From Balanoglossus misakiensis (taxonomy: Eukaryota > Animalia > Hemichordata): a DNA stretch of 64,000 bases. The notes beneath the pieces were generated by a model. That model was not told the origin of the DNA and searched no databases. It saw only the letters and a program-made list of their open reading frames with translations. The DNA is taken from positions 11,441,654-11,505,653 of the forward strand of contig CM082577.2 of NCBI GenBank assembly GCA_040954595.2, read 5' to 3'. Made by a program: the position numbers and the translations under genes. Below are positions 19,101 through 64,000 of the stretch, piece after piece. Position 1 is the first letter of the stretch, and every line of letters begins with the position of its first letter.

Positions 19101-22100
19101 ACAGCGCCCTCTAGTGGCCAGAAAGTGACATTCACACTTTTTCCCCCATTAATGGCACTGTTTGGTCAATTGTAAGACTCAGAAACAGGAATGTGGGTTG
19201 TAAAACATGCTTGCTACCATACATTGATGTGTATTGATGTGTATATTATCCTAATCCTGATGTACATGTATCAGATCAATCTTGATGACAGAAACAAAGA
19301 GCAGTGCTGTCAGACTAGACCTAAAGCACCTACAGAAACATGTGCATGACTTTGTGCAACTGATTTCCTGAGGTTGACTCTTTTCTTGGGCTTGACTAAG
19401 AGTTGTCCACTTTGATTTCCACTGGGATTCTGTTGGTTTGATATAGCTTTGCTAGGTTTCTCATAGCACATGTACTTTAAGAGCTACATGTGAAGAAGGA
19501 ATATTCTCAAGAACCTTGACTTTCTGGAGAAGAGGTGTTGTCTTACCCCTTTGCATGACTTAGTGTATTCAACTGGTTCTGTTATTTCGAAGAACAAATC
19601 GTTCAATTCGTAACATACAAGATTGATCTGATACATGTACATCAGGATTAGGATAATATTAAAAGGAATGTATGGCAGCAAGCATGTTTTACAACCCACA
19701 TTTCTGTCTCTGAGTGTTAAACTTGCCCAAAAAGTGTCATTAATGGGGGAAAAGTGTAAATGTCAGTTTCTAGCCACTAGAGGGCGCTGTCTTTTTGGAT
19801 CCATATTGGAAAATGTCCGCCATGGGTCAATGAATAATTGTACCAAATTTCAGGCTTTTAACCCTAAGTGCACAATTTTAAAGTATATATGTCTGTTTCT
19901 GGCCGCTAGAGGGCGCTGTCGTTTTGGATCCATATCAGAAAATGGCCGCCATGGGTCAATGCATAAGTGTACCAAGTTTCATGCTTTTAACCCTAAGTGC
20001 ACAATTATGCCAAAATTTGGGGTTTAGCTCCTGCACTATTTTTTAATTTAAATTTAAACCAATCGAACTTGCATTTTATGACAAACTTTTCTGTCTTTCC
20101 GTCTTTCAGCTAAGAGAAATACTCTTGAATTACTTTCAACTCAAACGGATGTTGCTGTTCAAATCGATGTCCCTGATTTGACAAATGTGACTGCATGTCT
20201 CTGGGTCAAAGCTGTTTCGCCAAAAGCAACGGCAACATTGGTTTCTTACTGTGTCAGCCTTTCCAACTGTAACGAGTTCGTCTTGTATGGTACAACCTCT
20301 CTCAAACTTTACGTCAAAGAGGAAGGCGCTCGGACAGGATTGGGGGTAGATGATGGCGCTTGGCATCATATGTGCGTGACATGGTCCTCAAGTGGTGGAA
20401 ACTGGGCAAGTTACCATAATGGTGACTTGTATCTGACTGGAGATGGTTTAGCGTCTGGTGAGACTATCAGAACTAATGGGACATTGGTGTTAGGTCAAGA
20501 ACAGGATGACCGGAGGGGTGGATATAACGAGTCACAAGCATTTGTTGGCAGCATCACTCAATTCAACATGTGGTCCAGAGTCTTAACAGATGGGGAAGTT
20601 GCCATGGTAGCACAAGACTGCTCAATTGGAGGAGATGTCTTTACTTGGAATACTGCTTCTCTCTACATGTCAGCTAATGCAGAGCTGGGAAAGAGTGATG
20701 TTTGTGGTAAGTTTCATTTAGAGTTCAACCATTTGATGCCCCAAACATAAAAGAATAACACGAAAATACTATAGTACTTAAAATGCCTGTTTAAAAATTA
20801 AACCAATCCAAATATCATAACTATAATGGATTTACATTTTATAACAAACTTGTCTGTCTTTCCACGTTTCAGCAAAGGGAAACACTCTTGAATTACTTTC
20901 AACTCAAACGGATGTTGCTGTTCAAATCAATGTCCCTGATTTGACAGCTGTGACTGCGTGTCTCTGGGTCAAAGCTGATTCGCCAAAAGAAAATGCAACA
21001 TTGGTTTCTTACTGTGTCAGCCGATCTAGCTGCAACGAGTTTCTCTTGTATGGTACAACCTCTCTGAAACTTCACGTCAAACAGAAAAGCGCCAAGACAG
21101 GATTGGGGGTAGATGATGGCGCGTGGCATCATATGTGCGTGACATGGTCCTCAAGTGGTGGAAACTGGGCAAGTTACCATGATGGTGAATTGTTAAGCAG
21201 CGGTCAAGGTTTAGTGTCTGGTCAGAACATCAGAACTGGTGGGACATTGGTGTTAGGTCAAGACCAAGATGACCGGAGAGGTGGATATGACGAATCACAG
21301 GCATTTGTTGGCAGCTTCACTCAATTCAATATGTGGTCCAGAGTTTTGACAGATGTGGAAGTTGCGATGGTGGCACAAGACTGCTCAATTGGAGGAGATA
21401 TCTTTGCTTGGAATACTGCTTCTCTCTACATGTCAGCAAATGCGTATCTTGGAAAGAGCCGTGTTTGCTGTAAGTTATGTTTTTAATTAGAGTTGAACCT
21501 CTTGATCCCCTAAACATATGAGAATAATACGAAAATACTAGTAGTTCAAAATTGCCTGTCTTAACTTTAAATCAATCCAAACCTCACAGCTATAATGACT
21601 TCGCATTTTATAACAAACTTTTCTATCTTTCCATCTTTCAGCTAAGGGAAACACTCTTGAATTACTTTCAACTCAAACGGATGTTGCTGTTCAAATCAAT
21701 GTCCCTGATTTGACAGCTGTGACTGCGTGTCTCTGGGTCAAAGCTGTTTCGCCAAAAGAAACGGCAGCATTGGTTTCTTACTGTGTCATCCAGTCCAGCT
21801 GTAACGAGTTCCTCTTGTATGGTACAACCCATATGGACATTCATGTCAAAGAGAAGAGCGTTAAGACAGAATTGGGTGTAGATGATGGTGCCTGGCATCA
21901 TATATGTGTAACATGGTCCTCAAGTGGTGGAAAGTGGGCAAGTTACCATAATGGTGACTTGTATCAGAGTGGAGATGGTTTAGCGTCTGGTGAGACTATA
22001 GAAACTGGTGGGACATTGGTGTTAGGTCAAGAACAGGATGACCGGAGGGGTGGATATGATGAGTCACAAGCATTTGTTGGCAGTATCACTCAATTCAACA

Positions 22101-22929
22101 TGTGGTCCAGAGTCTTAACAGATGGGCAAGTTGCGATGGTTGCACAAGACTGCTCAATTGGAGGAGATGTCTTTACTTGGAATACTGCTTCTCTCTACAT
22201 ATCAGCTAATGCGGATCTTGGAAAGAGCGATGTTTGTTGTAAGTTTATGTTTTAATTAGAGTTCAACCACTTGACTAAACTGGCGAAAACGCAAGGGGGA
22301 AGACGTGGTTATATGCAGGTACACAGGTGGTGGAATGCTGTTTGGGGTGGGCAGTTTTGCATAACAATGTGTAGTTGGCGATGTGAATGTGTTGTGTGGG
22401 GTGTGTTACGCAACAATTAAATCTAGAAACCCTGTTACATTCCACAAACATAACACCACCTGTGTACCTGCATATAACCAGTCTTCCTCCCCCCCCCCCC
22501 CCCTTGCATATTCGCCAGTTTAGTCTCCTGATGAGCGAGTCCAGTGACTCATGAAACAACGTTGAAGAGATTATACCGCCAAAGTTTTCTCCAACTACCC
22601 TTACTACATATTCTACTCTACTTTTGTATTGAGCACTTTGTATCGGACCAGTCAAATCGCGTACTTTGGACATACATACATACATACATACATACATACA
22701 TACATACATACATACATACATACATACATACATACATACATACATACATACATACATACATACATACATACATACATACATACATACATACATACATACA
22801 TACATACATACATACATACATACATACATACATACATACATACATACATACATACATACATACATACATACATACATACATACATACATACATACATACA
22901 TACATACATACATACATACATACATACAT

Positions 22930-29335: not shown

Positions 29336-39533
<10,198 letters not shown>

Positions 39534-45100: not shown

Positions 45101-48100
45101 TAGCAAATGGGCCAACACTGTACATGTACATAACTGCTATATATTCCCATAGAAACTGTTTAATTATAATCATCATTGTATATGATGATAATTCTTTATT
45201 TTTTTTTCAAGAATCTTCTTCGTAGCTTTGACGTCCGTTGTCATTTCCGAAACGGATAAATTAAACACTAAACACAAATACAAGAAAATAAATCTTGTAT
45301 GTATCTTTGCAAACCGTACCCCTGACAAGTGGAATCCACCAGTGCCATCCATTTCATGTTGAATTTTCTACTCAACTCTGAGACTGCAAAATGTGACGAC
45401 CTGCACGATGGACAATGTTTGTCTGTTTCGAAATATTTGGCAGGTGATATTTTGAGTACAGCACGCATGCAAAATTTCCCAGTCCCAGAGGTTCTGCATT
45501 GGAGTATTGTTAGTAAAATGTCATTAAATTAAAATGTCATGTTGACATGATCATGTGGGTGGCTAACTCGTTGTAGTCTTGCAAAAAAAGACGCCATCGG
45601 TTCACATACCATCATTTTGTCAAAGTCCTATTAATTAGATATTTCCAATGGAAACCTTTCCACCATTTACTTCAATGTAAACAATACTGGTATTTTTTTG
45701 GGGGGGGGGGACACACTATGCTCTGTTCAGTATGTCAGGAATGGGATTACTTGCACCGTAGGTTTTTAAATTGTCCAATCGCTGTAAGATGGCGGGATAG
45801 TGCAAACAATGTTATCAAAAGATTTCTAGGGAAATAAAGTGAAATTTCACCATCGAATACCATTTCACGGAGTGTGTTCTTTGAATCGGACAACAGTGTG
45901 GTAAGTTTTATCAGCGGAATTCACCCGACGTGCCAAGCTCAATGAAATGAAATGCGGGGCCGTATGGAAAGCCGTGGTTATTTTGAGTGAAGTATAGCGG
46001 AGCTGGTTTCTCAACATCTCCAGATGATCATCTTTAAATCATATACAAACAGTATCAAAAAGTTCCATTTTTTATAATTTTAAACTTTATGGTCGTTCCT
46101 AATATCCATCTCACGCTTTGCTGTAAAGATTTTTGACATGAGTACTGGTAACATTTTGAGAAACATAAATCACTTTGCGGGTATTTTCCAACACAGAAAA
46201 AAAAACAATTACAGACCGAGTAGACGGAAGTGTTGGTTGTTTTGTTGACCTTTAGTGAGAAATGTAATGACTAATGAATCCGTGGCCGTTCAACCGCTAG
46301 CGGCTGTCATAAACAGGAAAATACGTTAAAGTATAGATATGTCTGCGCGTGCGCATGTAGGATGTGACAAATAAGGCAGGGCGCACAATATCAGGTGACA
46401 TTGCAATCATGACGAGCTTTCTGTTGGACTGCAGATGCATATGTGGCAAATCCATGCTCAGAAATTGTACTATATTTTCCAAAAACTTCACACGAGGAAG
46501 ATAAAATTGCCAATAGTGGTGGGTTCATAAATCAGTAGTACATTATTCAATACATGCTAGTTTTATTCCAGTGATAAACAACACATGACTATTCTTTACT
46601 ATCAATCACGTGATCTTGCTATGTGACCCACGGCGTTGTCATTTCCAGATGACGGGCAAGCAATATTTCGACATCCAGTAAAAGTTTTTTCCGAGTATGT
46701 TTTACTTTAAAAGCGCCAGACGCGTAATATGTATCAGGTACGGTGCCTTATCAGCCCCATGGAGTTTCGTTTGCGCAGTCTTTGCCTGGACCACGTTGTT
46801 GAAGTTGCCCATCATCTGGAAATTTGAATGCTAACGTAACTGCCACCTGGACAATTGAGGAAGCGTAATTTGAACGGGAAAAGACCACAAATGCAATCAT
46901 AGATTATTTATTGTCATTTTCCGTGCAATTGATGACTATCCTGTCAAAATATGATACTATCCATAAATGATCACATCGACAGCGAATAAATAAATTGGCA
47001 TATTAAAGAATTCTATAGCAAATGGGCCAACACTAGTACATGTACATAACTGCTATATATGCCCATAGAAACTCTTTAATTTAAACTTGCATCAAAATAT
47101 GACACTATCCATAAATGATCACATCGACAGCGAATAAATAAATTGGCATATTAAATCAGAGAGGCGGTAGACACATGAGTTTCCTTGGTACACCCAGGAC
47201 AAGTTCTTTATTGAGAATAGTGACGGTCCATAATTGACTTAAGGACAGAACATTCTCCCAAGGTGTTAACGCATATTCACTGGATATATTCGGCTAACAG
47301 CATGACGTCAACGTCTGCCTTACCTCAGGCACTAGAGTCACCACAAACACGTTCTGCTTCCCCGCACCCTACGACCATGTAGGCAATGCACAGCCCTGAT
47401 GACAAAACAACAACATATTTTATAGAATTCAATAGGATACTATAAATCTTGACATTTCCATAGAATTCGACAGCAAATGGGCCAACACTGTGCATGTACA
47501 TAACTGCTATATATTCCCATAGAAACTGTTTAATTATAATCATCATTTTATATGATGAGAATTCTTTATTTTTTTTTCAAGAATCTTCTACGTAGCTTTG
47601 ACGTCCGTTGTCATTTCCGAAACGGATAAATTAAACACTAAACACAAATACAAGAAAATAAATCTTGTATGTATCTTTGCAAACCGTACCCCTGACAAGT
47701 GGAATCCACCAGTGCCATCCATTTCATGTTGAATTTTCTACTCAACTCTGAGACTGCAAAATGTGACGACCTGCACGATGGACAATGTTTGTCTGTTTCG
47801 AAATATTTGGCAGGTGATATTTTGAGTACAGCACGCATGCAACATTTCCCAGTCCCAGAGGTTCTGCATTGGAGTATTGTTAGTAAAATGTCATTAAATT
47901 AAAATGTCATGTTGACATGATCATGTGGGTGGCTAACTCGTTGTAGTCTTGCAAAAAAAGACGCCATCGGTTCACATACCATCATTTTGTTAAAGTCCTA
48001 TTAATTAGATATTTCCAATGGAAACCTTTCCACCATTTACTTCAACGTAAACAATACTGGTATTTTTTTGGGGGGGGGACACACTATGCTCTGTTCAGTA

Positions 48101-51100
48101 TGTCAGGAATTGGATTACTTGAACCGTAGGTTTTTAAATTGTCCAATCGCTGTAAGATGGCGGGATAGTGCAAACAATGTTATCAAAAGATTTCTAAGGA
48201 AATAAAGTGAAATTTCACCGTCGAATATCATTTCACGGAGTGTGTTCTTTGAATCGGACAACAGTGTGGTAAGTTTTATCAGCGGAATTCACCCGACGTG
48301 CCAAGCTCAATGAAATGAAATGCGGGGCCGTATGGAAAGCCGTGGTTATTTTGAGTGGAAGTATAGCGGAGCTGGTTTCTCAACATCTCCAGATGATCAT
48401 CTTTAAATCATATACAAACAGTATCAAAAAGTTCCATTTTTTATAATTTTAAACTTTATGGTCGTTCCTTAAATCCATCTCACGCTTTGCTGTAAAGATT
48501 TTTGACATGAGTACTAGTAACATTTTGAGAAATATAAATCATTTTGCGGGTATTTTCCAACACAGAAAAAAAAAACAATTACAGACCGAGTAGACGGAAG
48601 TGTTGGGTGTTTTGTTGACCTTTAGTGAGAAATGTAATGACTAATGAATCCGTGGCCGTTCAACCACGGCTAGCGGCTGTCATAAACAGGAAAATACGTT
48701 AAAGTATAGATATGTCTGCGCGTGCGCATGTAGGATGTGACAAATAAGGCAGGGCGCACAATATCAGGTGACATTGCAATCATGACGAGCTTTCTGTTGG
48801 ACTGCAGATGCATATGTGGCAAATCCATGCTCAGAAATTGTACTATGTTTTCCAAAAACTTCACACGAGGAAGATAAAATTGCCAAGAGTGGTGGGTTCA
48901 TAAATCAGTAGCACATTATTCAATACATGCTAGTTTTATTCCAGTGATAAACAACACATGACTATTCTTTACTATCAATCACGTGATCTTGCCATGTGAC
49001 CCACGGCGTTGTCATTTCCAGATGACGGGCAAGCAATATTTCGACATCCAGTAAAAGTTTTTTTCCGAGTATGTTTTACTTTAAAAGCGCCAAACACGTA
49101 ATATGTATCAGGTACGGTGCCTTATCAGCCCCATGGAGTTTCGTTTGCGCAGTCTTTGCCTGGACCACGTTGTTGAAGTTGCCCATCATCTGGAAATTTG
49201 AATGCTAACGTAACTGCCGCCTGGACAATTGAGGAAGCGTAATTTGAACGGGAAAAGACCACAAATGCAATCATAGATTATTTATTGTCATTTTCCGTGC
49301 AATTGATGACTATCCTGTCAAGCGGACCTTCAGAACAAATCTATAAGTGTGTTTGAAAAACATCGTTGATCAAAACACAGTTTTGTTTTGTTTTTACAAA
49401 TTAAATTTGTAATTTACTTGAAAGTCAAAGAATACTGCATAATAAACTCCTAAGGTACTCCTGGGCCACCTGTTTAAGCAAAAGTACAATTCCATAGCGT
49501 CGAGAATAAGGCAGGGGTCAAAATAATGAAAGTTGATTGGAGTGGGACAAAAAAGTCAATCGTTCATGTTGCGGGTAGTGTTGTCAGGATGATTGATTTA
49601 TTTTCGCCCATGCAAAATGAGACCTTATGATGCGTTGAAATAACAACGTGTTTTAAAATATTCAATATGCATGTAATTAAGAATGGATGTAAATATCAAT
49701 GCAAAGTAAAACACTTTAAAACAACTGCTCTTCAACACATCCAGTTAGTATCACTCGGTACGGCGACAAAGTCTCTTGACAGTTCGACTTGCACCAGTTG
49801 GATGATAAACAGCGGCGGTAACAAAGGTATGTTTCTTGAAGCTTTCACTATTCGACAGAGTTAGTTTCACACGCGTGTTGAACTACATTCAACGTATTAA
49901 TGAAATGGACAGAATACTTTTTGAACAAAGTTGACAGTGATACTGTTTAAAAACCATCATGTGACATCAACCGGTGTGAGTATTTTGATACAATGCCTAA
50001 TTGTCACAGAAATGGTCCATAAAAACCGAGAACTTTGCGATTGCAGAACTTTCGTTATATTTTTAACATCTTGATTCCATTGGTCAGTCGGAAACTCTGT
50101 CCATTTTTTGCAGCCCCGGAAATTGCACCAAAAGGAACAGATATTGTTCTAATGTTAATGACGTAAATTTTCTGAAAGACGCATTTCTTTCGCTGTTAAA
50201 CACAATCGACCGTGGTACGATGTCCTTAAAGTGTTCACGGCATCGAATTAGTTATTTAAACGGGGCATTTTTAAACACTGTCTTATTGTGTTGTTCAAAA
50301 AAAAAACATGCGCGCGATTTGGTTGAAAATATTTTATTACAGGGTCACACGTGTATGATTCCGATTATTGAGATCATCTTAAAAGCTTAATTTCAATAAC
50401 AGTTTATCACATATTATTGCATTTCAGACAATCATGATCACATCGCGATCCACAGCGATTTGGTTCTGCATGTTTGCACTACTTGTGGTGCAGATTACAG
50501 CTGCCAGCAAAAATAAGAGGAAGATTGAGGAAGAGCGAAGGATCCGTGCACTGCGTCCGAGCTTCGTCAAACGTGAACACCAAGCGCCACTGATTCACGC
50601 TGGAGACGAGAAGATAGACGAGGAATACATCGTAAAACTGAGGGTTAGTAGATGTTGTGGCGAACACACATTTATCGATTACAGACGGTTTGTTAGAGCC
50701 ATTTGGTGTTCACAACTGATAAATTCTTTTCAAATTCACAGTCACGGTTGTGTACGCAGCTAAAAGGCATATTGGCTATATCTATAGAAATGCCCACGTC
50801 CACATGTATGGATGGACGGTTAAAACATGCCAAATAGACTGCTCGTGTGTATAGCAAAATTAAACAAAACGAAAACACGTCAGAGTCTCGTTATATTATT
50901 GGGTACATAATAACCTAAGATATTTTTAATTGGACGCAGAAAACTAAAGAAGAGTAGAAGTCGCTCATTTTTTTCATTTCTTTGATATTGTCCAGAAGAT
51001 GGGTGCTCTCAAATTATATTGACGTTTAAGGTATCAAAATCTATCTCTAAATTCTCAAAGATGACGGACAAAAACGCTGCATTTACATTCGTATCTGGTA

Positions 51101-51239
51101 TCAGTTACATCAGGTTTTTCAAATAATGTGTAATATTGCAACCATTGGTACACTCATTACATGATTTGAAACCACTTTGCACATAACAGTGTATATTGTT
51201 ATGTCATTTTATTCAGGACGGCCTTACTGATGACGAACT
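42143..51239 (+). repeat. Segmental duplication copy B, with a 1.2-kb TE insertion and an internal ~2.25-kb tandem duplication
   Basis: Matches 24617-30141; ~44705-46947 and ~47081-49320 both match ~25974-28218. Confidence 0.92.
43249..44451. mobile_element. 1.2-kb non-autonomous DNA transposon present only in copy B
   Basis: Empty site ctttcaatagtatttcccc in copy A (~25714-25732). In copy B, TCATAGTTCCAC...GTGGAACCATGA TIRs are flanked by a 2-3 bp (AT/AAT) duplication. Internal hairpin at ~43478-43583. Confidence 0.85.
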
Positions 51240-54205
51240 AGCCGCTTTCGAAGAAAAATTCCAAGCACTTTCTGAAGAGCACGGCTTACATATTGATTTT
51301 CAAATAAATGTGACAAGACTGATGAAAGGTTTTGTCGCCAGAGTTCCTGGAGACGCAGTCGAAATAGTACGTGCGCATTTCGTTGTTTTCAAAAGCCTTT
51401 GGCTATATGTCTGTCTGTCTCTCTGTCTCTCTGTCTCTCTGTCTGTCTGTCTGAAACAAACTGACGAAATACAAAAGCTTGCTGTTGTATATCCATTGTA
51501 TGTATGTATGTATGTATGTATGTATGTATGTATGTATGTATGTATGTATGTATGTATGTATGTATGTATGTATGTATGTATGTATGTATGTATGTATGTA
51601 TGTATGTATGTATGTATGTATGTATGTATGTATGTATGTATGTATGTATGTATGTATGTATGTATGTATGTATGTATGTATGTATGTATGTATGCATGCA
51701 TGCATACATTTTCGTTTCTTTTAGCAAAACATTCCATGCCTATGTTTTTTTTCATTTAGCTCCGTTGGCTAGACGAGGTTGAGTATGTTGAAGAAGACGA
51801 AGTTGTCCATGGAAATGTAGAGTGGGGTTTGGACAGGATTGATCAGCCTGACCTGCCTTTGGATAACGTTTATTCATCAGCACCACTAGGTATTTTTTTC
51901 TAATACCTATCTTCCTCAAGTAATATACCCCAAATCGTTTATCACTTCAGAATTTGACTTGGCCAGCTTCATGTTTTAGTGTATGTTTAACGAAGTTAAA
52001 TTCAATTATCTGAAATTCATTTTAAACATTATGATTGCAATACTTTTTGTATTAAATTTTTATTTAAAGGGGACGGTAGTGGCGTTAATGTCTTTGTATT
52101 GGATACTGGCATACGTTTCTCACATAACGAGTTTGGTGGTAGAGCACATAGATTTTTTGACGCCATTTCAGATGGGCAAAATGTAAGTTGCACTATAAGA
52201 CACCATTGTTTTTGGGAAGTAAAGCGTCAATGGACAATGTTTCCATCAGATTCTTCTGTCGTACTACGTTGTGTGTATGTTGAGAGACACACACTTATAT
52301 GACAAATTCACAACTGAAATTGTTGCATGCACAGTGTTTTATTCGTTTTTTGCCCCAAAAAACAGTTTTACAATGACCATGACAGAAACCAATTTATTAG
52401 AATAAGGTCTTGACTTTATTCTGTTTATATGATTACTTTTTAGAGTGTAAATCTTTTACTTTTACTGCAAAACTGCAAGTAACTTGCAAAACTGTCACAG
52501 CAGTTTCAAAGAAATCATTTGAATAATTAGATATTTCTTAATTTCTTAAAAATCTCAAAATAGTTTTAATTGTGTGACTGTATGAAAAGTCAATGAAAAA
52601 GTTCACCTGTTTTAACACATTTGATCCCTGTTGCGTTTGGGAGACAATACAGAACGATATTTCGGTTTTACGTTCTAAATTTCAGATCTATGTAATAATA
52701 ATATTTCTGGATATATTGCATGTTTTTTCAGGGGAACGACTGTTATGGACATGGTACTCACTGTGCTGGTACTATTGGTGGGAATACTGTTGGTGTTGCA
52801 CCTGGTGTTACATTGTATGGGGGTCGTGTTTTGGATTGCCGAGGATGGGGGGCAAACAGTGGCGTTGTTGCAGGTAAGACTGAGTCATCGTAATTAGTGT
52901 TCAATTAGTGTTCATTTATTACAAAAAATAATTGTCAATAAGGAACATTGTAATTTTGCCTTTTTAATACAAGGTGAACGAAAAGCGCGAAATCCGAAGT
53001 TGTTTTAAATTATATTCATAGACGCTTACAGCATGGAGGTTCTCTCATGATTTTTCCCTACAGGTATGGATGCAATCGCTGCTTCCAATATGAAACCAGC
53101 AGTGGTCTCCATGTCGCTTGGCAGTGGACGCTCCACATCTACGAATTTGGCAGTCAAACGTTTAACCGATGCTGGGTACATCGTGGTTGTTGCTGCTGGA
53201 AACGACAATAGAGACGCCTGTACCAAGTCACCCGCTTCGGCTCCTGAGGTATGAAATTTAAAGTGGCAAAAACAAGTAGAATATAGTGAGGCATGACCCC
53301 AAGCAGAAAGGTGACAAACGATCACCAAGAATATGCGTACCATCTCAGAAATGTTTAAAAATGCAGGTGTTAACGCCCCTATGTGTTGCTGTATCTGTTT
53401 GTATTTAGCTCAGCAAAGTCGACACCAAATCTTGTGAGTTCTGCGTTTGATTTCACCGTGAAGTATACGTATAGCGACGATTAAATACCTTTCGCTCGAT
53501 TGTACATTGTATTCGTTTCTGAAAATATCAGGCCCACGTACGTCCATTGTAGATATGCATTTTTTTTTGTGTCGTACATGACCAGACTGAACCACAAATG
53601 ACTGAAAGTTGGCAACTGTTTCTGTATGTTACAGGCAATTACGGTGGGAGCTACTGAATCTGACGATGATTTAGCTTGGTATTCTAATTACGGCAGCTGT
53701 GTTAATATTCTGGCACCCGGAAGTGACGTCAGAAGTGCTTACAAAAACGCAGACGACAGCTACACCACTATGAGTGGCACCTCGATGGCAACTCCTCACG
53801 TTGCTGGTAAGTGTGTCTTGATATATTGATATTTTCGGAGGTCTTGATGTATTCTGGGGGCATTTTAATATAACAAAATTGAACAGTTTTGGTGACTTAG
53901 TTTTTTTTGTTGAAGATGTACATAATTAACGCAGTGTTCATCTTGCAGTCTTCTGTTCATTCCAAATGATGCATGATGTCGACAGTGGGGATCATGGCTT
54001 TCAGCGTGCCTGTTCCTGTAATAAATTTCTCTCTATTTCCTCAATCAAGGTGTTGCCGCCCTGCTGCTTCAAGCGGATCCATCTCTCACACAATCGGCGA
54101 TGTTGAACAAGTTGTTGGACGCTGCCCAAACAGGAAAAATTGACCTGTCCCGCCTGTCTGACAGTTCATCAACACCGAATAAACTCGTAAATATTCCCGC
54201 CATTG
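50434..54205 (+). CDS. Subtilase part of gene 3: exons 50434-50643, 51217-51366, 51760-51889, 52070-52182, 52732-52873, 53064-53248, 53635-53806, 54050-54205 (419 codons)
   Basis: Signal peptide; I9-like prodomain (EYIVKL..KGF..VEYVEED); [14 protein letters not shown]; catalytic Asp VLDTG, His GHGTHCAG, oxyanion AAGN, Ser [12 protein letters not shown]; C-terminal STPNKL. All introns GT-AG with consistent phases. Confidence 0.95.
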
Positions 54206-57200
54206 GTGAGTATATACAAATTTGCTTCTATACACCTTTTTCATTTAACCACTGTTACGAGAAAACACCTTTCTTACTTATTTTAATGTCTAGAAAACAA
54301 CAGAATGAAGTTGATAATACAATGTAATATCACAATTAACTCTATACATGCACATATGCCTTAAGATGGGTCCCCCGGATCTTTTTGCCCGTTGCTATGG
54401 ACCTTTGCAGGACATTACACCCCGATTTGGACTAAGCCGTTTTCAGAGTCTAACAAGGGGTTGGTAACTAGTTGAAAATCTGCACGATTATGAGTGTGCG
54501 CCCCCTGACGCCATTGATATGCAAATTAGCTAGGTCAAATTTCAAAAGCCTAAGGCTTTTTATTCCGTGACCTCAAAAACGAACTTGATACGTATTCATT
54601 AGTTGCTTGAACCAGGGAAGATCGTGACGGATTTTGTTTTCGAATATTATCGTTGTATCCTACGATTTCAGCATACCCGTATCACACCTGAAAAAGTCAT
54701 CGATTTTGGGTGTTTTTGGACGCACTCTTCCACCGGTATCGCTTCTTAGCACGACGAAAACCGAAAAAACGATCCGTCACACTGTGCGGAAGTGCGTTCT
54801 CAACAAGCAGGTCAAATTTGACTGGCGTACGTGGCCTATGAAAAAAGCCTTAGGGATTTTCGTGAACGGTACAAAATCTCTGTGTACAAAACATTGGATT
54901 TTTAGCGTTCGATCCAGTTACTGTGGTTACAGGACGCGCACGCTATCGCTGACCGCTGCTTTGCCGTATTAGCGTGGCGGCCTATGGCCGGGCGGTAGCT
55001 GCCGTAAACATACTCGGACAGTGGGTGTGCGCACAATCGTGTGTATTTTTAACTAGTTACAAGCCCCTTGTCGGACGTTCATAACGGTTTCGATCAAAAT
55101 TGAGTGTAGTGTCCTATAAAGGCCCATAGCAACGAGCAAAAAGATACGGGGGACCCATCTTAAATCGTGCTATATATTGTGGTATACCCGCCCTAGGCGG
55201 GAGATTATTCAAAAGAGTTCGGGCGTTCCATCTGGCCAGGGTGGGAGGTGGCGGAGGCAGCAGAGCGCCCGCTAACGACAGGCAGAGTTCTGATCTTATC
55301 AGTGGGTCTATCGCAGACTGTATCTAGTGAGAATAAAAACACGCGTACCATTGAGGTTAGACACACGCGTGGCCCGACATTCACGTCACCTGCGCGCGTG
55401 GAAGAAGATACTGGAGCGTACTACCCAGCCTACACACTCTGTGCTGCGTAGATTTTCATTGTACTGGAAATGTCGCTTATGCAGAAAAATACGAGAAACC
55501 ATGTATAGCCAAAATAACCAGCTACCAGAACGTATACTAAGAGTATTGAGTCAGACACAAGCTAACGCGTACCGGTGACCTCAGACACACGCTTGGTCCA
55601 ATCTTCACCTCAACTGTGCGCTTGCGGTGGTGGACACTAGAGCGTACACCCGGCGTATTATGCCAGAGAAAAATGGCGAGAATGCGCATTACGTAGTAGG
55701 CCTAGGCGAATGCATTGGGTCGCACTGTTTGCGAAATTCGAGGTCACAATTTCGTACGATCTTTGGTGCTACCGCAAAAGCGAGACAAAATGTACATTCC
55801 CTTTCTATAACAACGCGTCGTAGGTTTGTATTAAAATTGACTCATACGACAAGCCAAAACGTCAGTAAATCCATGACAGCAAACCAAGACTATTCGGAAA
55901 CATGGCAGGGCAATGTTCCAACCGAGAATGATTTACGTGATGCATCGGAGATTTAGTACCGTCCGGTAGATGGCATAAAGTGGGTGTACCCTCTACGGAA
56001 CAATGTAGCCTCCACGTATATAACATCTGTGACGAATTAATGTTATTTAAAAATATATCAATTATCTACCAGTATGAGTGAACTATCGAGTGTAAAGTTT
56101 CCAATGTTATTCTGCACCAGCTTTGGGCAAAGCCCTACGGGCTATCATTACTTGAGCATGTATATATTTCAGTCCTTATACATCTGTATGGGATAATAAT
56201 AGTACAGATTGAAAACAAGTTCCATGATAATTATCCCAAACGTTGCTGCTCATTGGGGTGAATTCCAAATGATTTACCACCTAGCCAATGCTTGTATACT
56301 GTTATAACTGTACCCCAGTTGTCCCGCCCCTAAACACTGAGATTTTTGTGTTAATGGAATCTCCTTGATCAGTTTGTTTTTTCTCAGAAGCTTCTTGCAA
56401 TGCCAGACAGGTTGTGTTTAATTTCTGTAGGGCGTCCAATATCTTCAGCGAGTTCATCAAATTCGGCCCAGTGTCTCTTTATTTATGAAGATAATAAAAC
56501 AAGTTCGTTGAATATGCAAATTAGGGGTAATTTATATGATATAAGTAACTGTTTCGATACAGTACCCGAACACAAGTTCGTTGCAACTTAGAACAAATTC
56601 GATGCTGGATGTCTGGATTCATACAGCTAATTGCACAAATTCATTAAATTTGCAAATTAGCAATTACTAAATAAGGCACTTCTAAATGTCTCACAACACA
56701 GTCAGATCCAGTCAGATAAACATTTTTTGTAGCATGTTACAATAATTTAAGAAATATAGCTCTAATTTTAAAAGTTCATAAATTATGCAAATGAGCACTC
56801 TATTGATATGATATTATGATCTATTGTTCCACAAGGAAACACTCTTGAATTACTTTCAACTGAAACGGATGTTGCCGTACAAGTGGATGTCCCTGATTTG
56901 ACAGCTGTGACTGCGTGTCTCTGGGTCAAAGCTGATTCGTCAAAAGAAAAGGCAACATTGGTTTCTTACTGTGTCAGCCGATCTAGCTGCAACGAGTTCC
57001 TCTTGTATGGTACAACCTCTCTGAAACTTTTCGTCAAACAGAAAAGCGCCAAGACAGGATTGGGGGTAGATGATGGTGCCTGGCATCATATGTGCGTGAC
57101 GTGGTCCTCAAGTGGTGGAAACTGGGCAAGTTACCATAATGGTGAATTGTTAAGCAGCGGTCATGGTTTAGTGTCTGGTCAGACCATCAGAACTGGTGGG

Positions 57201-60200
57201 ACATTGGTGTTAGGTCAAGAACAGGATGACCGGAGAGGTGGATATGACAAATCACAAGCATTTATTGGCAGCATCACTCAATTCAACATATGGTCCAGAG
57301 TCTTAACAGATGGGGAAGTTGCCATGGTAGCACAAGACTGCTCAATTGGAGGAGATGTCTTCACTTGGAATACTGCTTCTCTCTACATGTCAGCTAATGC
57401 AGAGCTGGGAAAGAGCAATGTTTGCTGTAAGTTATGTTTTTAATTAGAGTTCAACCACTTGATCCCCTAAACATATGAGAATAATACTAGTAGTTAATTG
57501 CCTGTTTTTTTAGTTTAAATCAATCGAAACTTCACAGCTATAATGACTTCGCATTTTTAACAAACTTCTGTCTTTCCATCTTTCAGCTAAGGGAAACACT
57601 CTTGAATTACTTTCAACTCAAACGGATGTTGCTGTTCAAATCGACGTCCCTGATTTGACAGCTGTGACTGCGTGTCTCTGGGTCAAAGCTGATTCGTCAA
57701 AAGAAAAGGCAACATTGGTTTCTTACTGTGTCAGCCGATCTAGCTGCAACGAGTTCCTCTTGTATGGTACAACCTCTCTGAACCTTTACGTCAAAGAGAA
57801 AAGCGCCAAGACAGGATTGGGGGTAGATGATGGTGCCTGGCATCATATGTGCGTGACGTGGTCCTCAAGTGGTGGAAACTGGGCAAGTTACCATAATGGT
57901 GAATTGTTAAGCAGTGGTCATGGTTTAGCGTCTGGTGAGACTATAAGAACTGGTGGGACATTGGTGTTAGGTCAAGAACAGGATGACCGGAGAGGTGGAT
58001 ATGACAAATCACAAGCATTTATTGGCATCATCACTCAATTCAACATGTGGTCCAGAGTTTTAACAGATGGGCAAGTTGCCATGGTGGCACAAGACTGCTC
58101 AATTGGAGGAGATGTCTTTACTTGGAATACTGCTTCTCTCTACATGTCAGCTAATGCAGAACTGGGAAAGAGCAATGTTTGCTGTAAGTTATGTTTTTAA
58201 TTAGAGTTCAACCACTTGATCCCCTAAACATATGAGAATAATACTAGTAGTTAATTGCCTGTTTTTTTTAGTTTAAATCAATCCAAACTTCACAGCTATA
58301 ATGACTTCGCATTTTTAACAAACTTCTGTCTTTCCATCTTTCAGCAAAGGGAAACACTCTTGAATTACGTATACTTTCAACTCAAACGGATGTTGCTGTT
58401 CAAATCGACGTCCCTGATTTGACAGCTGTGACTGCGTGTCTCTGGGTCAAAGCTGATTCGTCAAAAGAAAAGGCAACATTGGTTTCTTACTGTGTCAGCC
58501 GATCTAGCTGTAACGAGTTCCTCTTGTATGGTACAACCTCTCTGAACCTTTACGTCAAAGAGAAAAGCGCCAGGACAGGATTGGGGGTAGATGATGGTGC
58601 CTGGCATCATATGTGCGTGACGTGGTCATCAAGTGGTGGAAACTGGGCAAGTTACCATAATGGTGAATTGTTAAGCAGTGGTCATGGTTTAGCGTCTGGT
58701 GAAACTATAAGAACTGGTGGGACATTGGTGTTAGGTCAAGAACAGGATGACCGGAGAGGTGGATATGACAAATCACAAGCATTTATTGGCATCATCACTC
58801 AATTCAACATGTGGTCCAGAGTTTTAACAGATGGGCAAGTTGCCATGGTGGCACAAGACTGCTCAATTGGAGGAGATGTCTTTACTTGGAATACTGCTTC
58901 TCTCTACATGTCAGCTAATGCAGAGCTGGGAAAGAGCAATGTTTGCTGTAAGTTATGTTTTTAATTAGAGTTCAACCACTTGATCCCCTAAACATATGAG
59001 AATAATACTAGTAGTTAATTGCCTGTTTTTTTTAGTTTAAATCAATCCAAACTTCACAGCTATAATGACTTCGCATTTTTAACAAACTTCTGTCTTTCCA
59101 TCTTTCAGCAAAGGGAAACACTCTTGAATTACTTTCAACTCAAACGGATGTTGCTGTTCAAATCGACGTCCCTGATTTGACAGCTATGACTGCGTGTCTC
59201 TGGGTCAAAGCTGATTCGTCAAAAGAAAAGGCAACATTGGTTTCTTACTGTGTCAGCCGATCTAGCTGTAACGAGTTACTCTTGTATGGTACAACCTCTC
59301 TGAACCTTTACGTCAAAGAAAAAAGCGCCAGGACAGGATTGGGGGTAGATGATGGTGCCTGGCATCATATGTGCGTGACGTGGTCCTCAAGTGGTGGAAA
59401 CTGGGCAAGTTACCATAATGGTGAATTGTTAAGCAGCGGTCATGGTTTAGCGTCTGGTGAGACTATAAGAACTGGTGGGACATTGGTGTTAGGTCAAGAA
59501 CAGGATGACCGGAGAGGTGGATATGACAAATCACAAGCATTTATTGGCAGCATCACTCAATTCAACATATGGTCCAGATTCTTAACAGATGGGGAAGTTG
59601 CCATGGTAGCACAAGACTGCTCAATTGGAGGAGATGTCTTTACTTGGAATACTGCTTCTCTCTACATGTCAGCTAATGCAGAGCTGGGAAAGAGCAATGT
59701 TTGCTGTAAGTTATGTTTTTAATTAGAGTTCAACCACTTGATCCCCTAAACATATGAGAATAATACTAGTAGTTAATTGCCTGTTTTTTAGTTTAAATCA
59801 ATCGAAACTTCACAGCTATAATGACTTCGCATTTTTAACAAACTTCTGTCTTTCCATCTTTCAGCTAAGGGAAACACTCTTGAATTACTTTCAACTCAAA
59901 CGGATGTTGCTGTTCAAATCGACGTCCCTGATTTGACAGCTGTGACTGCGTGTCTCTGGGTCAAAGCTGATTCGTCAAAAGAAAAGGCAACATTGGTTTC
60001 TTACTGTGTCAGCCGATCTAGCTGCAACGAGTTCCTCTTGTATGGTACAACCTCTCTGAACCTTTACGTCAAAGAGAAAAGCGCCAAGACAGGATTGGGG
60101 GTAGATGATGGTGCCTGGCATCATATGTGCGTGACGTGGTCCTCAAGTGGTGGAAACTGGGCAAGTTACCATAATGGTGAATTGTTAAGCAGTGGTCATG

Positions 60201-63200
60201 GTTTAGCGTCTGGTGAGACTATAAGAACTGGTGGGACATTGGTGTTAGGTCAAGAACAGGATGACCGGAGAGGTGGATATGACAAATCACAAGCATTTAT
60301 TGGCATCATCACTCAATTCAACATGTGGTCCAGAGTTTTAACAGATGGGCAAGTTGCCATGGTGGCACAAGACTGCTCAATTGGAGGAGATGTCTTTACT
60401 TGGAATACTGCTTCTCTCTACATGTCAGCTAATGCAGAGCTGGGAAAGAGCAATGTTTGCTGTAAGTTATGTTTTTAATTAGAGTTCAACCACTTGATCC
60501 CCTAAACATATGAGAATAATACTAGTAGCTAATTGCCTGTTTTTTTAGTTTAAATCAATCCAAACTTCACAGCTATAATGACTTCGCATTTTTAACAAAC
60601 TTCTGTCTTTCCATCTTTCAGCAAAGGGAAACACTCTTGAATTACGTATACTTTCAACTCAAACGGATGTTGCTGTTCAAATCGACGTCCCTGATTTGAC
60701 AGCTGTGACTGCATGTCTCTGGGTCAAAGCTGATTCGTCAAAAGAAAAGGCAACATTGGTTTCTTACTGTGTCAGCCGATCTAGCTGTAACGAGTTCCTC
60801 TTGTATGGTACAACCTCTCTGAACCTTTACGTCAAAGAGAAAAGCGCCAGGACAGGATTGGGGGTAGATGATGGTGCCTGGCATCATATGTGCGTGACGT
60901 GGTCATCAAGTGGTGGAAACTGGGCAAGTTACCATAATGGTGAATTGTTAAGCAGCGGTCATGGTTTAGCGTCTGGTGAGACTATAAGAACTGGTGGGAC
61001 ATTGGTGTTAGGTCAAGAACAGGATGACCGGAGAGGTGGATATGACAAATCACAAGCATTTATTGGCATCATCACTCAATTCAACATGTGGTCCAGAGTT
61101 TTAACAGATGGGCAAGTTGCCATGGTGGCACAAGACTGCTCAATTGGAGGAGATGTCTTTACTTGGAATACTGCTTCTCTCTACATGTCAGCTAATGCAG
61201 AGCTGGGAAAGAGCAATGTTTGCTGTAAGTTATGTTTTTAATTAGAGTTCAACCACTTGATCCCCTAAACATATGAGAATAATACTAGTAGTTAATTGCC
61301 TGTTTTTTTAGTTTAAATCAATCCAAACTTCACAGCTATAATGACTTCGCATTTTTAACAAACTTCTGTCTTTCCATCTTTCAGCAAAGGGAAACACTCT
61401 TGAATTACTTTCAACTCAAACGGATGTTGCTGTTCAAATCGACGTCCCTGATTTGACAGCTATGACTGCGTGTCTCTGGGTCAAAGCTGATTCGTCAAAA
61501 GAAAAGGCAACATTGGTTTCTTACTGTGTCAGCCGATCTAGCTGTAACGAGTTCCTCTTGTATGGTACAACCTCTCTGAACCTTTACGTCAAAGAGAAAA
61601 GCGCCAGGACAGGATTGGGGGTAGATGATGGTGCCTGGCATCATATGTGCGTGACGTGGTCCTCAAGTGGTGGAAACTGGGCAAGTTACCATAATGGTGA
61701 ATTGTTAAGCAGCGGTCATGGTTTAGCGTCTGGTGAGACTATAAGAACTGGTGGGACATTGGTGTTAGGTCAAGAACAGGATGACCGGAGAGGTGGATAT
61801 GACAAATCACAAGCATTTATTGGCAGCATCACTCAATTCAACATGTGGTCCAGAGTTTTAACAGATGGGCAAGTTGCCATGGTGGCACAAGACTGCTCAA
61901 TTGGAGGAGATGTCTTTACTTGGAATACTGCTTCTCTCTACATGTCAGCTAATGCAGAGCTGGGAAAGAGCAATGTTTGCTGTAAGTTATGTTTTTAATT
62001 AGAGTTCAACCACTTGATCCCCTAAACATATGAGAATAATACTAGTAGTTAATTGCCTGTTTTTTTAGTTTAAATCAATCCAAACTTCACAGCTATAATG
62101 ACTTCGCATTTTTAACAAACTTCTGTCTTTCCATCTTTCAGCTAAGGGAAACACTCTTGAATTACTTTCAACTCAAACGGATGTTGCTGTTAAAATCGAC
62201 GTCCCTGATTTGACAGCTGTGACTGCGTGTCTCTGGGTCAAAGCTGATTCGTCAAAAGAAAAGGCAACATTGGTTTCTTACTGTGTCAGCCGATCTAGCT
62301 GCAACGAGTTCCTCTTGTATGGTACAACCTCTCTGAACCTTTACGTCAAAGAGAAAAGCGCCAAGACAGGATTGGGGGTAGATGATGGTGCCTGGCATCA
62401 TATGTGCGTGACGTGGTCCTCAAGTGGTGGAAACTGGGCAAGTTACCATAATGGTGAATTGTTAAGCAGCGGTCATGGTTTAGCGTCTGGTGAGACTATA
62501 AGAACTGGTGGGACATTGGTGTTAGGTCAAGAACAGGATGACCGGAGAGGTGGATATGACAAATCACAAGCATTTATTGGCAGCATCACTCAATTCAACA
62601 TGTGGTCCAGAGTTTTAACAGATGGGCAAGTTGCCATGGTGGCACAAGACTGCTCAATTGGAGGAGATGTCTTTACTTGGAATACTGCTTCTCTCTACAT
62701 GTCAGCTAATGCAGAGCTGGGAAAGAGCAATGTTTGCTGTAAGTTATGTTTTTAATTAGAGTTCAACCACTTGATCCCCTAAACATATGAGAATAATACT
62801 AGTAGTTAATTGCCTGTTTTTAGTTTAAATCAATCGAAACTTCACAGCTATAATGACTTCGCATTTTTAACAAACTTCTGTCTTTCCATCTTTCAGCTAA
62901 GGGAAACACTCTTGAATTACTTTCAACTCAAACGGATGTTGCTGTTAAAATCGACGTCCCTGATTTGACAGCTGTGACTGCGTGTCTCTGGGTCAAAGCT
63001 GATTCGTCAAAAGAAAAGGCAACATTGGTTTCTTACTGTGTCAGCCGATCTAGCTGCAACGAGTTCCTCTTGTATGGTACAACCTCTCTGAACCTTTACG
63101 TCAAAGAGAAAAGCGCCAAGACAGGATTGGGGGTAGATGATGGTGCCTGGCATCATATGTGCGTGACGTGGTCCTCAAGTGGTGGAAACTGGGCAAGTTA

Positions 63201-64000
63201 CCATAATGGTGAATTGTTAAGCAGTGGTCATGGTTTAGCGTCTGGTGAGACTATAAGAACTGGTGGGACATTGGTGTTAGGTCAAGAACAGGATGACCGG
63301 AGAGGTGGATATGACAAATCACAAGCATTTATTGGCATCATCACTCAATTCAACATGTGGTCCAGAGTTTTAACAGATGGGCAAGTTGCCATGGTGGCAC
63401 AAGACTGCTCAATTGGAGGAGATGTCTTTACTTGGAATACTGCTTCTCTCTACATGTCAGCTAATGCAGAGCTGGGAAAGAGCAATGTTTGCTGTAAGTT
63501 ATGTTTTTAATTAGAGTTCAACCACTTGATCCCCTAAACATATGAGAATAATACTAGTAGTTAATTGCCTGTTTTTTTAGTTTAAATCAATCCAAACTTC
63601 ACAGCTATAATGACTTCGCATTTTTAACAAACTTCTGTCTTTCCATCTTTCAGCAAAGGGAAACACTCTTGAATTACTTTCAACTCAAACGGATGTTGCT
63701 GTTCAAATCGACGTCCCTGATTTGACAGCTGTGACTGCGTGTCTCTGGGTCAAAGCTGATTCGTCAAAAGAAAAGGCAACATTGGTTTCTTACTGTGTCA
63801 GCCGATCTAGCTGTAACGAGTTCCTCTTGTATGGTACAACCTCTCTGAACCTTTACGTCAAAGAGAAAAGCGCCAGGACAGGATTGGGGGTAGATGATGG
63901 TGCCTGGCATCATATGTGCGTGACATGGTCCTCAAGTGGTGGAAACTGGGCAAGTTACCATAATGGTGAATTGTTAAGCAGCGGTCATGGTTTAGCGTCT
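50434..64000 (+). CDS. Gene 3: secreted proteinase K/aqualysin/PCSK9-like S8A subtilase fused to at least 10 tandem pentraxin domains (runs off the window)
   Basis: Protease exons splice in frame. Exon 8 ends ATT G|gtgagt (phase 1) with no stop, and the next recognisable coding exon is pentraxin 56836 (aag|GA AAC ACT), giving Gly at the junction. Confidence 0.8.
51498..51694. repeat. (TATG)n microsatellite in protease intron 2
   Basis: Directly visible. Confidence 0.97.
54365..55159. mobile_element. 795-bp TTAA-target MITE (Kolobok-like termini)
   Basis: TTAA|GATGGGTCCCCCG...CGGGGGACCCATC|TTAA with ~115-bp imperfect TIRs; empty site cttaaatcgtg in copy A at ~30367. Confidence 0.88.
56836..64000 (+). 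CDS. Pentraxin exon cluster 3 (56836-57426, 57587-58183, 58345-58947, 59109-59705, 59865-60461, 60622-61224, 61385-61981, 62142-62738, 62897-63493, 63654-window end)
   Basis: ~757-bp exon+intron tandem unit; all exons open and phase 1-1; introns ~160 bp and nearly identical. Confidence 0.93.

What the first reader, a model, noticed from the sequence alone, without database searches (positions are those of the whole stretch)
50434..64000. Proteinase K-type subtilase fused to at least 10 tandem pentraxin domains
Seen: the D/H/S triad and oxyanion Asn are intact, the last protease exon has no stop and ends in phase 1, and all following pentraxin exons are phase 1-1 and open. The predicted chain exceeds 2,300 aa within the window. 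Known: CRP/SAP gain avidity as non-covalent pentamers/decamers and recruit separate complement proteases; PCSK9 carries a Cys/His-rich tail, not pentraxins. Inference: a single-chain multivalent sensor directly wired to a broad-specificity protease, which could be targeted to microbial or glycan surfaces.
Basis: partly seen in the sequence, partly recalled or inferred. Interest (0 to 1): 0.88.

Follow-up and report, generated by a model that had tools for sequence, protein, structure and literature searches.

The report
Protease gene trailing ten pentraxin exons
An intact proteinase K-type protease gene, most similar to acorn-worm genes, is followed in frame by at least ten near-identical pentraxin exons and is predicted to make one secreted enzyme with a long binding tail that would likely hold it on microbial or mucus surfaces, a pairing we did not find in any other animal.

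Summary
Eight protease exons (50434-54205) and nine complete plus one cut-off pentraxin (PTX) exons join through GT-AG, phase-1 sites into 2,328 stop-free residues with an intact D/H/S triad. The protease falls in an acorn-worm clade (72% identical to Ptychodera flava). The join itself is inferred: no RNA could be examined. For it: the array has no leader exon of its own, PTX exons in the window are under purifying selection (median dN/dS 0.46), 6 of 9 acorn-worm relatives carry a C-terminal module at this point, and a broken duplicate upstream keeps the exon-8/intron/PTX order. Against it: the first PTX acceptor is weak, a rival last exon exists, and no relative shows the fusion. Tandem PTX arrays (4-10 domains) already stand in acorn-worm and amphioxus gene models, and enzyme-PTX fusions are known (carbonic anhydrase VI). 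The ten copies are a young amplification, and a CRP-like ring got no support. The subtilase-PTX pairing was not found in another animal. Verdict: likely real (about 0.7), a new variant by exon shuffling; microbe targeting is untested.

The parts
50434..50643 (+). Exon 1: signal peptide and start of the I9-type propeptide (phase 0 end)
   Evidence: hydrophobic 9-residue window 3.09, like relatives' 2.1-3.9; I9 hit on relative P0020
51217..51889 (+). Exons 2-3 (51217-51366, 51760-51889): rest of the propeptide and predicted maturation site near residue 138/139
   Evidence: site inferred from the alignment of relative P0020 to mature aqualysin-1
52070..53806 (+). Exons 4-7 (52070-52182, 52732-52873, 53064-53248, 53635-53806): catalytic D175, H208, N295, S360
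54050..54205 (+). Exon 8: end of the S8 domain, no stop, phase-1 GTGAGT donor
   Evidence: donor score 6.1 against 4.4-10.0 for the gene's other seven donors
54206..56835 (+). Predicted 2,630-nt intron; holds an inverted-repeat element (54361-55163), no signal-peptide-like exon, no Cys-rich tail exon, and a rival acceptor at 56388
56836..57426 (+). First PTX exon (591 nt, phase 1-1), with its own weak AAG acceptor
57587..64000 (+). Tandem array of about 757-nt units (597/603-nt PTX exon plus 158-161-nt intron): 8 complete exons and one cut by the window end; partly a three-unit higher-order repeat
29336..38953 (+). Broken duplicate: exon 1, an in-frame deletion from exon 2 into exon 8 (hybrid exon 30119-30206), intron, a remnant of the first PTX exon with its acceptor (about 36649), and three open PTX exons (36806-37402, 37581-38177, 38357-38953)
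20110..22238 (+). Third PTX cluster: three open phase 1-1 exons, downstream of an unrelated membrane-protein gene

Best explanation
An intact proteinase K/aqualysin-type protease gene ends its last protease exon in phase 1 and is followed by at least ten open phase 1-1 pentraxin exons; it is likely spliced into one secreted chain whose pentraxin tail would likely bind repetitive surface ligands through calcium and hold the enzyme there. Steps: (shown) exon structure, open frame, catalytic residues, pentraxin identity, coding constraint on PTX exons. (Inferred) a symmetric PTX exon entered the phase-1 intron where related acorn-worm proteases carry other small modules, and unequal crossing-over then multiplied it recently. 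(Inferred from the S8A family) the zymogen is secreted and removes its own propeptide near residue 138. (Inferred) each domain binds Ca2+ and an acidic or phosphorylated ligand weakly, and a flexible string of ten or more gives avidity without a non-covalent ring. (Speculative) the setting is gut or skin mucus of a sediment-dwelling worm, where defence and digestion of microbes overlap. The splice join alone I put at about 0.7; join plus surface-targeting at about 0.5.
For: Stop-free 2,328-residue model with GT-AG sites throughout. No ATG in the 2.6-kb gap starts a hydrophobic stretch scoring 2.3 or more, and the best of 14 ATG-to-phase-1-donor candidates scores 2.01, while six stand-alone PTX relatives begin with leaders scoring 2.13-3.87; so the array appears to need an upstream donor, and exon 8 is the nearest known one. 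All 15 complete PTX exons in the window are open and keep frame while their introns vary from 158 to 179 nt; dN/dS is below 1 in 28 of 28 pairs among 8 distinct exons (median 0.46, range 0.29-0.74; Fisher p<0.05 in 21 of 28, pairs not independent; 0.29, p=0.012 for array copies 1 and 2). 6 of 9 acorn-worm relatives continue past the same point into Cys-rich modules, whereas 15 of 16 echinoderm relatives examined stop at the domain end (one tail not shown). The broken duplicate keeps the exon-8 donor, 1.3 kb of intron and the same first acceptor ahead of its PTX exons. By motif spacing, 5 of the 7 CRP calcium ligands listed in PMC6503050 are identical (N61, E138, Q139, D140, Q150), E147 is Asp and D60 is Cys; neuronal pentraxins have Ala there. 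Precedent: a single PTX exon appended to carbonic anhydrase VI (PMC5723433); an amphioxus model with peroxidase plus PTX domains (P0279); a bacterial S8 with three LamG/PTX-like domains (P0367).
Against: No transcript was seen. The first PTX acceptor ranks 11th of 142 AG sites in the intron by a crude score trained on 15 window sites, one misplaced by a base, although skipping to the strong second acceptor keeps the same frame. The top-scoring site, 56388, would give a 33-residue last exon with AATAAA just after the stop. In the duplicate, read-through of exon 8 stops after two codons with AATAAA about 50 nt later, as a true last exon would. No animal S8-PTX fusion among 413 retrieved proteins (242 with S8, 172 with PTX, 1 with both, bacterial), and the nearest P. 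flava protease has a different tail. No ligand, tissue or activity data exist. The 3' end of the gene lies outside the window, so a membrane anchor or other last module is not excluded.
Confidence: 0.5

Rival explanations
1. The fusion is transcribed and translated, but the broad-specificity protease likely cuts itself free, so the PTX tail would act as a secretion, storage or matrix-anchoring piece (or as a separately released lectin polymer) and not as a standing targeting arm.
For: The closest solved structures are aqualysin-1, a keratinase and bacterial proteinase K-type enzymes; that aqualysin and Vibrio enzymes shed C-terminal extensions by self-cleavage is recalled, not checked here. 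Only about 3 residues separate protease and first PTX domain. Low-confidence linkers in the five-domain relative suggest exposed joints.
Against: Very short, cysteine-ended joints may resist cleavage; calcium-site residues are kept and PTX exons are constrained. No processing data either way.
Confidence: 0.2
2. The protease ends on its own (read-through to 54327 or the short 56388 exon) and the PTX array is a neighbouring cassette that is either rarely spliced in, spliced from an undetected leader, or left over from segmental duplication.
For: Weak first acceptor and a higher-scoring rival acceptor with stop and AATAAA; stop plus AATAAA right after exon 8 in the duplicate; 2 of 9 acorn-worm relatives and 15 of 16 echinoderm relatives end at the protease domain; the region is heavily rearranged and a PTX cluster also sits behind an unrelated gene.
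Against: No leader exon found. The rival exon shows no coding constraint: by my reading of the alignment, five residues change and two are inserted against one silent change, in a segment more diverged than the surrounding intron (2.7%). The main copy has no AATAAA or ATTAAA until 55332. The read-through tail differs between the two copies (40 residues against 2). PTX copies 1 and 2 show dN/dS 0.29.
Confidence: 0.2
3. The ten-copy length is a young, probably polymorphic or partly mis-assembled expansion with little functional meaning; the working unit would be a protease with about three or four PTX domains.
For: Internal introns of the array are 99-100% identical and exons differ by 1-13 bases; the two other clusters hold three exons each; a Glandiceps model has five repeats at 98-100% identity, so such bursts recur.
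Against: Units carry distinct, patterned differences (32 variable columns of 766 over 8 units; units 3 and 6 share a 6-nt in-frame insertion, units 4 and 7 share other variants), as expected from real unequal crossing-over and not from one sequence written repeatedly. Older arrays of 8-10 diverged domains exist in relatives.
Confidence: 0.1

Closest known systems
Acorn-worm 'extracellular serine proteinase-like' S8A proteases (P. flava XP_070543375.1 = P0020, P0147; Glandiceps P0157)
   Same: 72% identity over 391 residues to P0020; same signal-I9-S8 layout; one clade with the window protease (99/100 support, 11 rows, including one partial protist sequence); a C-terminal module begins at the same point in 6 of 9.
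   Different: Their tails are 50-100-residue Cys-rich modules or absent; none of the 9 carries a PTX domain; no such Cys-rich exon is in the window.
Tandem-pentraxin gene models of acorn worms and amphioxus (Saccoglossus XP_006812501.1, 9 domains; P. flava XP_070546223.1, 5; XP_070535667.1, 10; Glandiceps XP_077982065.1, 5; Branchiostoma XP_078594462.1, 5)
   Same: Head-to-tail PTX domains, the nearest 43-55% identical to the window's, sometimes near-identical repeats, joined to varied partners: WSC, C-type lectin, F5/8, tectonin, fibrinogen, peroxidase.
   Different: None of those retrieved carries a subtilase; all are automatic models with no functional study found.
Non-mammalian carbonic anhydrase VI-pentraxin (PMC5723433)
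   Same: Secreted enzyme with a C-terminal PTX domain proposed to have been gained as a single exon (passages read).
   Different: One PTX domain per chain, pentameric in solution; not a protease; no tandem array.
Neuronal pentraxins NPTX1/NPTX2, CRP and SAP
   Same: Best solved matches: NPTX2 E 3.7e-37, NPTX1 E 1.4e-36, SAP 4.6e-14, CRP 3.9e-11; most calcium ligands kept.
   Different: They carry one PTX domain per chain and multimerise non-covalently or through N-terminal regions; no enzyme domain. The CRP Asp60 position is Cys and the Phe66 position is Tyr here.
Bacterial proteinase K-type subtilases with C-terminal binding modules (aqualysin-1; P0367 from Dehalococcoidia with three LamG/PTX-like domains)
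   Same: Same S8A fold family (aqualysin-1 E 7e-87 to P0020); appended PKD, Fn3, ricin or LamG modules occur.
   Different: Intronless prokaryotic genes with distant LamG domains (E about 1e-11 to 1e-12 against the window's PTX); most simply an independent origin.
PCSK9
   Same: S8A catalytic domain, I9 propeptide, C-terminal accessory region (E 1e-58 to P0020).
   Different: Scores well below aqualysin-type enzymes; different tail. That PCSK9 stays bound to its propeptide and works non-catalytically is recalled; whether this protein does was not tested.

Membership tests
Subtilase S8A, proteinase K/aqualysin type | Asp-His-Ser triad in that order with oxyanion Asn | tested here: met
   D175, H208, N295, S360; PF00082 above cut-off on exon 6 alone
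Subtilase S8A, proteinase K/aqualysin type | Signal peptide and I9 propeptide | tested here: met
   hydrophobic leader; propeptide aligns without gaps to P0020, which hits PF05922 above cut-off
Subtilase S8A, proteinase K/aqualysin type | Closest structural relatives are proteinase K-type enzymes | tested here: met
   tested with relative P0020: aqualysin-1, keratinase and proteinase K-type enzymes rank first; tree
Subtilase S8A, proteinase K/aqualysin type | Self-maturation and proteolytic activity | not testable with these tools
   needs recombinant protein
Pentraxin domain | PF00354 match, HxCxS/TWxS-type signature and fold | tested here: met
   PF00354 E 7.5e-29; HMCVTWSS in the sequence; domains of relative P0268 match NPTX1 at TM 0.92, rmsd 1.6
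Pentraxin domain | Calcium-binding residues | tested here: met
   5 of 7 CRP ligands identical, one conservative, one changed, mapped by motif spacing; binding itself not measured
Short pentraxins (CRP/SAP) | Single-domain protomer | tested here: not met
   ten tandem exons with no separate leader
Short pentraxins (CRP/SAP) | Cyclic pentamer or decamer geometry | tested here: inconclusive
   only a five-domain relative could be folded: pTM 0.47, weak linkers; the window's own tandem was not folded
Short pentraxins (CRP/SAP) | Phosphocholine pocket (Phe66, Glu81, Thr76) | tested here: inconclusive
   Phe66 position is Tyr by spacing from the conserved Asn; the other two could not be placed without a CRP alignment
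PCSK9 orthologues | Cys/His-rich C-terminal domain after the S8 domain | tested here: not met
   the downstream exons are PTX; PCSK9 was not placed in the tree
Acorn-worm/amphioxus tandem-PTX proteins | Three or more head-to-tail PTX domains of this subfamily in one transcript | tested here: inconclusive
   nearest relatives by sequence and phase-compatible exons, but no transcript seen

The most novel reading that the evidence does not exclude
Acorn worms use a mobile, self-amplifying phase 1-1 pentraxin exon as a plug-in recognition cassette. In this one locus it is wired to an active subtilase (ten or more copies), to a protease-deleted duplicate (three copies, a possible decoy or pure binder) and to a membrane-anchored protein (three copies), with variation gathered near the calcium site. 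The protease form would be a one-chain sensor-plus-effector that binds and digests microbial surfaces without a complement-type cascade.
Probability: 0.2. Interest if true: 0.8.

Novelty: new variant of a known kind. Interest (0 to 1): 0.55.

Why it matters
If spliced as modelled, it is an animal protein in which a pattern-recognition fold and a broad-specificity protease sit on one chain, with avidity from tandem repeats instead of oligomer assembly. It would show exon shuffling and copy-number growth at work on a very short timescale (array introns 99-100% identical), and it points to a family of tandem-pentraxin proteins in acorn worms and amphioxus for which our searches found gene models but no study. 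One RT-PCR or long-read experiment decides the main question. If the join is not used, the locus is an ordinary secreted protease beside a pentraxin repeat.

Tried and rejected
No whole genome is held for the window, so the 3' end and true copy number could not be read. The RNA look-up for 51750-57500 listed no RNA holder; this is no evidence either way, and with no run ids no reads could be laid. Folding the single PTX exon without an alignment failed (pLDDT 33.7) and was not used. The dN/dS values and alignment are invalid for the six upstream exons (starts off by one base) and were redone; the first script had wrong boundaries, fixed. Self-BLAST of relatives printed nothing and was redone by domain. 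A search of the window for the P. flava Cys-rich tail found nothing better than E 1.2. Literature: no paper held pentraxin+subtilisin+hemichordate, 'pentraxin domain'+'peptidase S8'+'domain architecture', PCSK9+hemichordate+deuterostome+horizontal or amphioxus+subtilisin+pentraxin; each listed one unrelated paper; none of the 20 papers listed held 'tandem pentraxin' and none of the 20 held 'acorn worm'. My recollection that the hemichordate genome paper (PMC4729200) treats PCSK9-like genes was not borne out: 0 hits in the main text and in the 2 supplements held. Three look-ups of earlier scan findings returned nothing. Atlas searches of a relative's Cys-rich tail (weak structural rows with chitin-binding proteins, all under the naming bar) and of the 142-residue exon at 17435-17860 (best score 0.77) named no family. 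No complex prediction was sent. Rejected: assembly duplication of one unit as the whole story (patterned differences); PCSK9 as the closest relative; the 56388 exon as a constrained coding exon.
Full report
Observation. The window shows an eight-exon protease gene from 50434 to 54205. Of the four canonical boundary combinations tried, one is stop-free and gives 419 residues: signal peptide, propeptide and a subtilase domain. D175, H208, N295 and S360 are intact. Exon 8 has no stop and ends in phase 1; read-through would stop at 54325-54327. After 2,630 nt come nine complete pentraxin (PTX) exons and a tenth cut by the window end, all phase 1-1 with GT-AG sites. The joined frame is 2,328 residues with no stop, about 246 kDa without the leader. 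Pfam confirms both domain types.

Source and relatives. The protease is 72% identical to Ptychodera flava XP_070543375.1. In a 37-row tree of catalytic domains it falls in an 11-row clade (99/100) made of nine acorn-worm proteins, itself and one partial protist sequence, apart from the echinoderm, fungal and bacterial rows. The best PTX hits are also acorn-worm proteins. The window is therefore probably from an acorn worm that the databases do not annotate (inference). The closest solved structures to the P. flava relative are aqualysin-1 and other proteinase K-type enzymes, with PCSK9 well below. The PTX domain is closest to neuronal pentraxins (E 1e-36 to 1e-37), then PTX3, SAP and CRP.

Is the join real? 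No RNA could be examined (one search listed no holder), so the case is indirect. First, the array has no leader of its own: no ATG in the gap starts a stretch with hydropathy 2.3 or more, and the best of 14 candidate first exons scores 2.01, while six stand-alone PTX relatives score 2.13-3.87. Second, the PTX exons behave as coding sequence. The window has 15 complete ones in three clusters, all open and in frame while their introns vary in length; dN/dS among 8 distinct exons is below 1 in 28 of 28 pairs (median 0.46; p<0.05 in 21, pairs not independent). Third, this position is a module-swapping point in the family: 6 of 9 acorn-worm relatives continue into Cys-rich tails, 2 end within a few residues and 1 is a truncated isoform, while 15 of 16 echinoderm relatives end at the domain. 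No Cys-rich exon lies in the window. I could not check intron phase in those relatives. Fourth, a broken duplicate at 29336-38953 keeps the order exon 8, intron, PTX. Its 5' part is 99.1% identical to the main gene, its exon-8 piece differs at 12 of 69 bases, the shared 1.3-kb intron segment differs by 2.7%, and it retains the same first acceptor before a deletion.

Evidence against the join. The first PTX acceptor is weak, 11th of 142 AG sites by a crude score (trained on 15 acceptors and 13 donors from the window, one of each misplaced by a base). Skipping to the strong second acceptor would give the same fusion less one domain. The top-scoring site, 56388, would add 33 residues, a stop and AATAAA; against the duplicate it shows mostly residue-changing differences, so it does not look constrained. 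In the duplicate, exon-8 read-through stops after two codons with AATAAA about 50 nt on, which is what a true last exon looks like; the main copy has neither feature. No relative shows the fusion. I put the join at about 0.7.

The array. Copies 2-9 differ by 1-13 coding bases and their introns are 99-100% identical. Variants fall in a pattern: units 3 and 6 share a 6-nt in-frame insertion, units 4 and 7 share others. This fits recent unequal crossing-over with a three-unit step and argues against a simple assembly repeat, but reads were not available to prove it. The number ten is thus young and may vary between animals.

What is already on record. Tandem PTX chains occur in automatic gene models: 9 domains in Saccoglossus, 5, 8 and 10 in P. 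flava, 5 in Glandiceps (98-100% identical repeats), 5 and 7 in amphioxus, with WSC, C-type lectin, F5/8, tectonin, fibrinogen or peroxidase partners. Of 413 proteins retrieved, 242 matched the protease, 172 the PTX domain and one both, a bacterial S8-LamG protein. This is a sample: the best 150 of 4,780 PTX hits, the best 120 of 7,981 and of 154 protease hits, within set length ranges. Papers: PMC5723433 (passages) shows a pentameric carbonic anhydrase VI-PTX and proposes gain of a single PTX exon. PMC9848320 (passages) lists PTX among domains found in astacin proteases, without detail in what I read. PMC6503050 (passages) gives the CRP calcium and phosphocholine residues. PMC6015868 (passages) reports a subtilisin-like protease among genes of amphioxus gut phagocytic cells; its relation to this gene was not tested. 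PMC5712786 (passages) shows PTX with F-type lectin domains. PMC4729200 (term search of text and two supplements) had no hit. Ten searches listed no paper on a subtilase-PTX fusion or on acorn-worm pentraxins; the library lacks most subscription papers.

Likely mechanism. Shown: catalytic residues, leader, PTX identity, coding constraint. Inferred: secretion and self-removal of the propeptide near residue 138, from the aqualysin alignment. By motif spacing, five of seven CRP calcium ligands are identical, one is conservative and one is Cys, so calcium-dependent binding is likely; the ligand is unknown. Among the 8 distinct exons 63 of 198 positions vary, and 10 of the 19 with three or more states lie in residues 48-74 and 130-142, which flank the calcium ligands (not tested statistically). 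A ring like CRP's is not supported: the joints are about 3 residues, and a five-domain P. flava relative folded with pLDDT 87 but pTM 0.47 and weak linkers; its domains match NPTX1 at TM 0.92, and no multi-domain structure matches the arrangement. That test is on a relative and is inconclusive. The simplest picture is a string of weak binders giving avidity for repetitive surfaces such as microbes, food particles or mucus, and keeping the protease there. The main functional rival is that the enzyme sheds its tail.

Wider locus. The duplicate's deletion is in frame, so it could give a 696-residue protease-free product with three PTX domains if the remnant acceptor is skipped; use of the remnant would stop the frame early, and decay is at least as likely. 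The third cluster (20110-22238) can be joined in frame, 810 residues without a stop, to three phase 1-1 exons of an unrelated membrane protein. Neither join is shown.

Verdict. A real, well-formed locus; the fusion is likely but unproven. Each half is known and so is the strategy of adding a PTX exon to an enzyme, while this pairing and scale were not found in another animal. New variant of a known kind; interest 0.55.

Noticed in passing
window 16164-17861 (+), with PTX cluster 20110-22238: Three phase 1-1 exons: a transmembrane segment, a Thr-rich stalk and a 142-residue domain with no Pfam or Atlas name; they join in frame to three PTX exons (810 residues, no stop). The start of the gene was not found. 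An inverted-repeat element (18885-20006) lies between.
   Followed up: partly
window 29336-38953 (+): Duplicate of the protease gene with an in-frame deletion from exon 2 into exon 8 and a second deletion of almost all of the first PTX exon; mosaic of a 99.1% identical 5' part and an older 3' part; pseudogene or protease-free binder.
   Followed up: yes
window 11292-13315 (+): Two-exon gene for a predicted secreted protein of 492 residues: leader, coiled coil and EPTP-type repeat region.
   Followed up: partly
window 1344-2600 (-): Open frame of 418 residues made of about 13 tandem C2H2 zinc fingers (84-nt period).
   Followed up: no
window 30558-35748 and 44451-49321: Local tandem duplications: a 2.6-kb unit at 99.8% identity and a 2.2-2.5-kb upstream block present three times at about 98%; the region is structurally unstable.
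   Followed up: no
proteins P0020, P0147, P0149, P0152, P0154, P0157: Acorn-worm S8 proteases carry small Cys-rich C-terminal modules with no Pfam match at E 0.001 for the two scanned; one tail has weak structural rows with chitin-binding proteins, below the naming bar.
   Followed up: partly
protein P0279 (Branchiostoma belcheri XP_019615365.1): Gene model joining haem peroxidase with three to four PTX domains, another effector-plus-PTX-array design.
   Followed up: no
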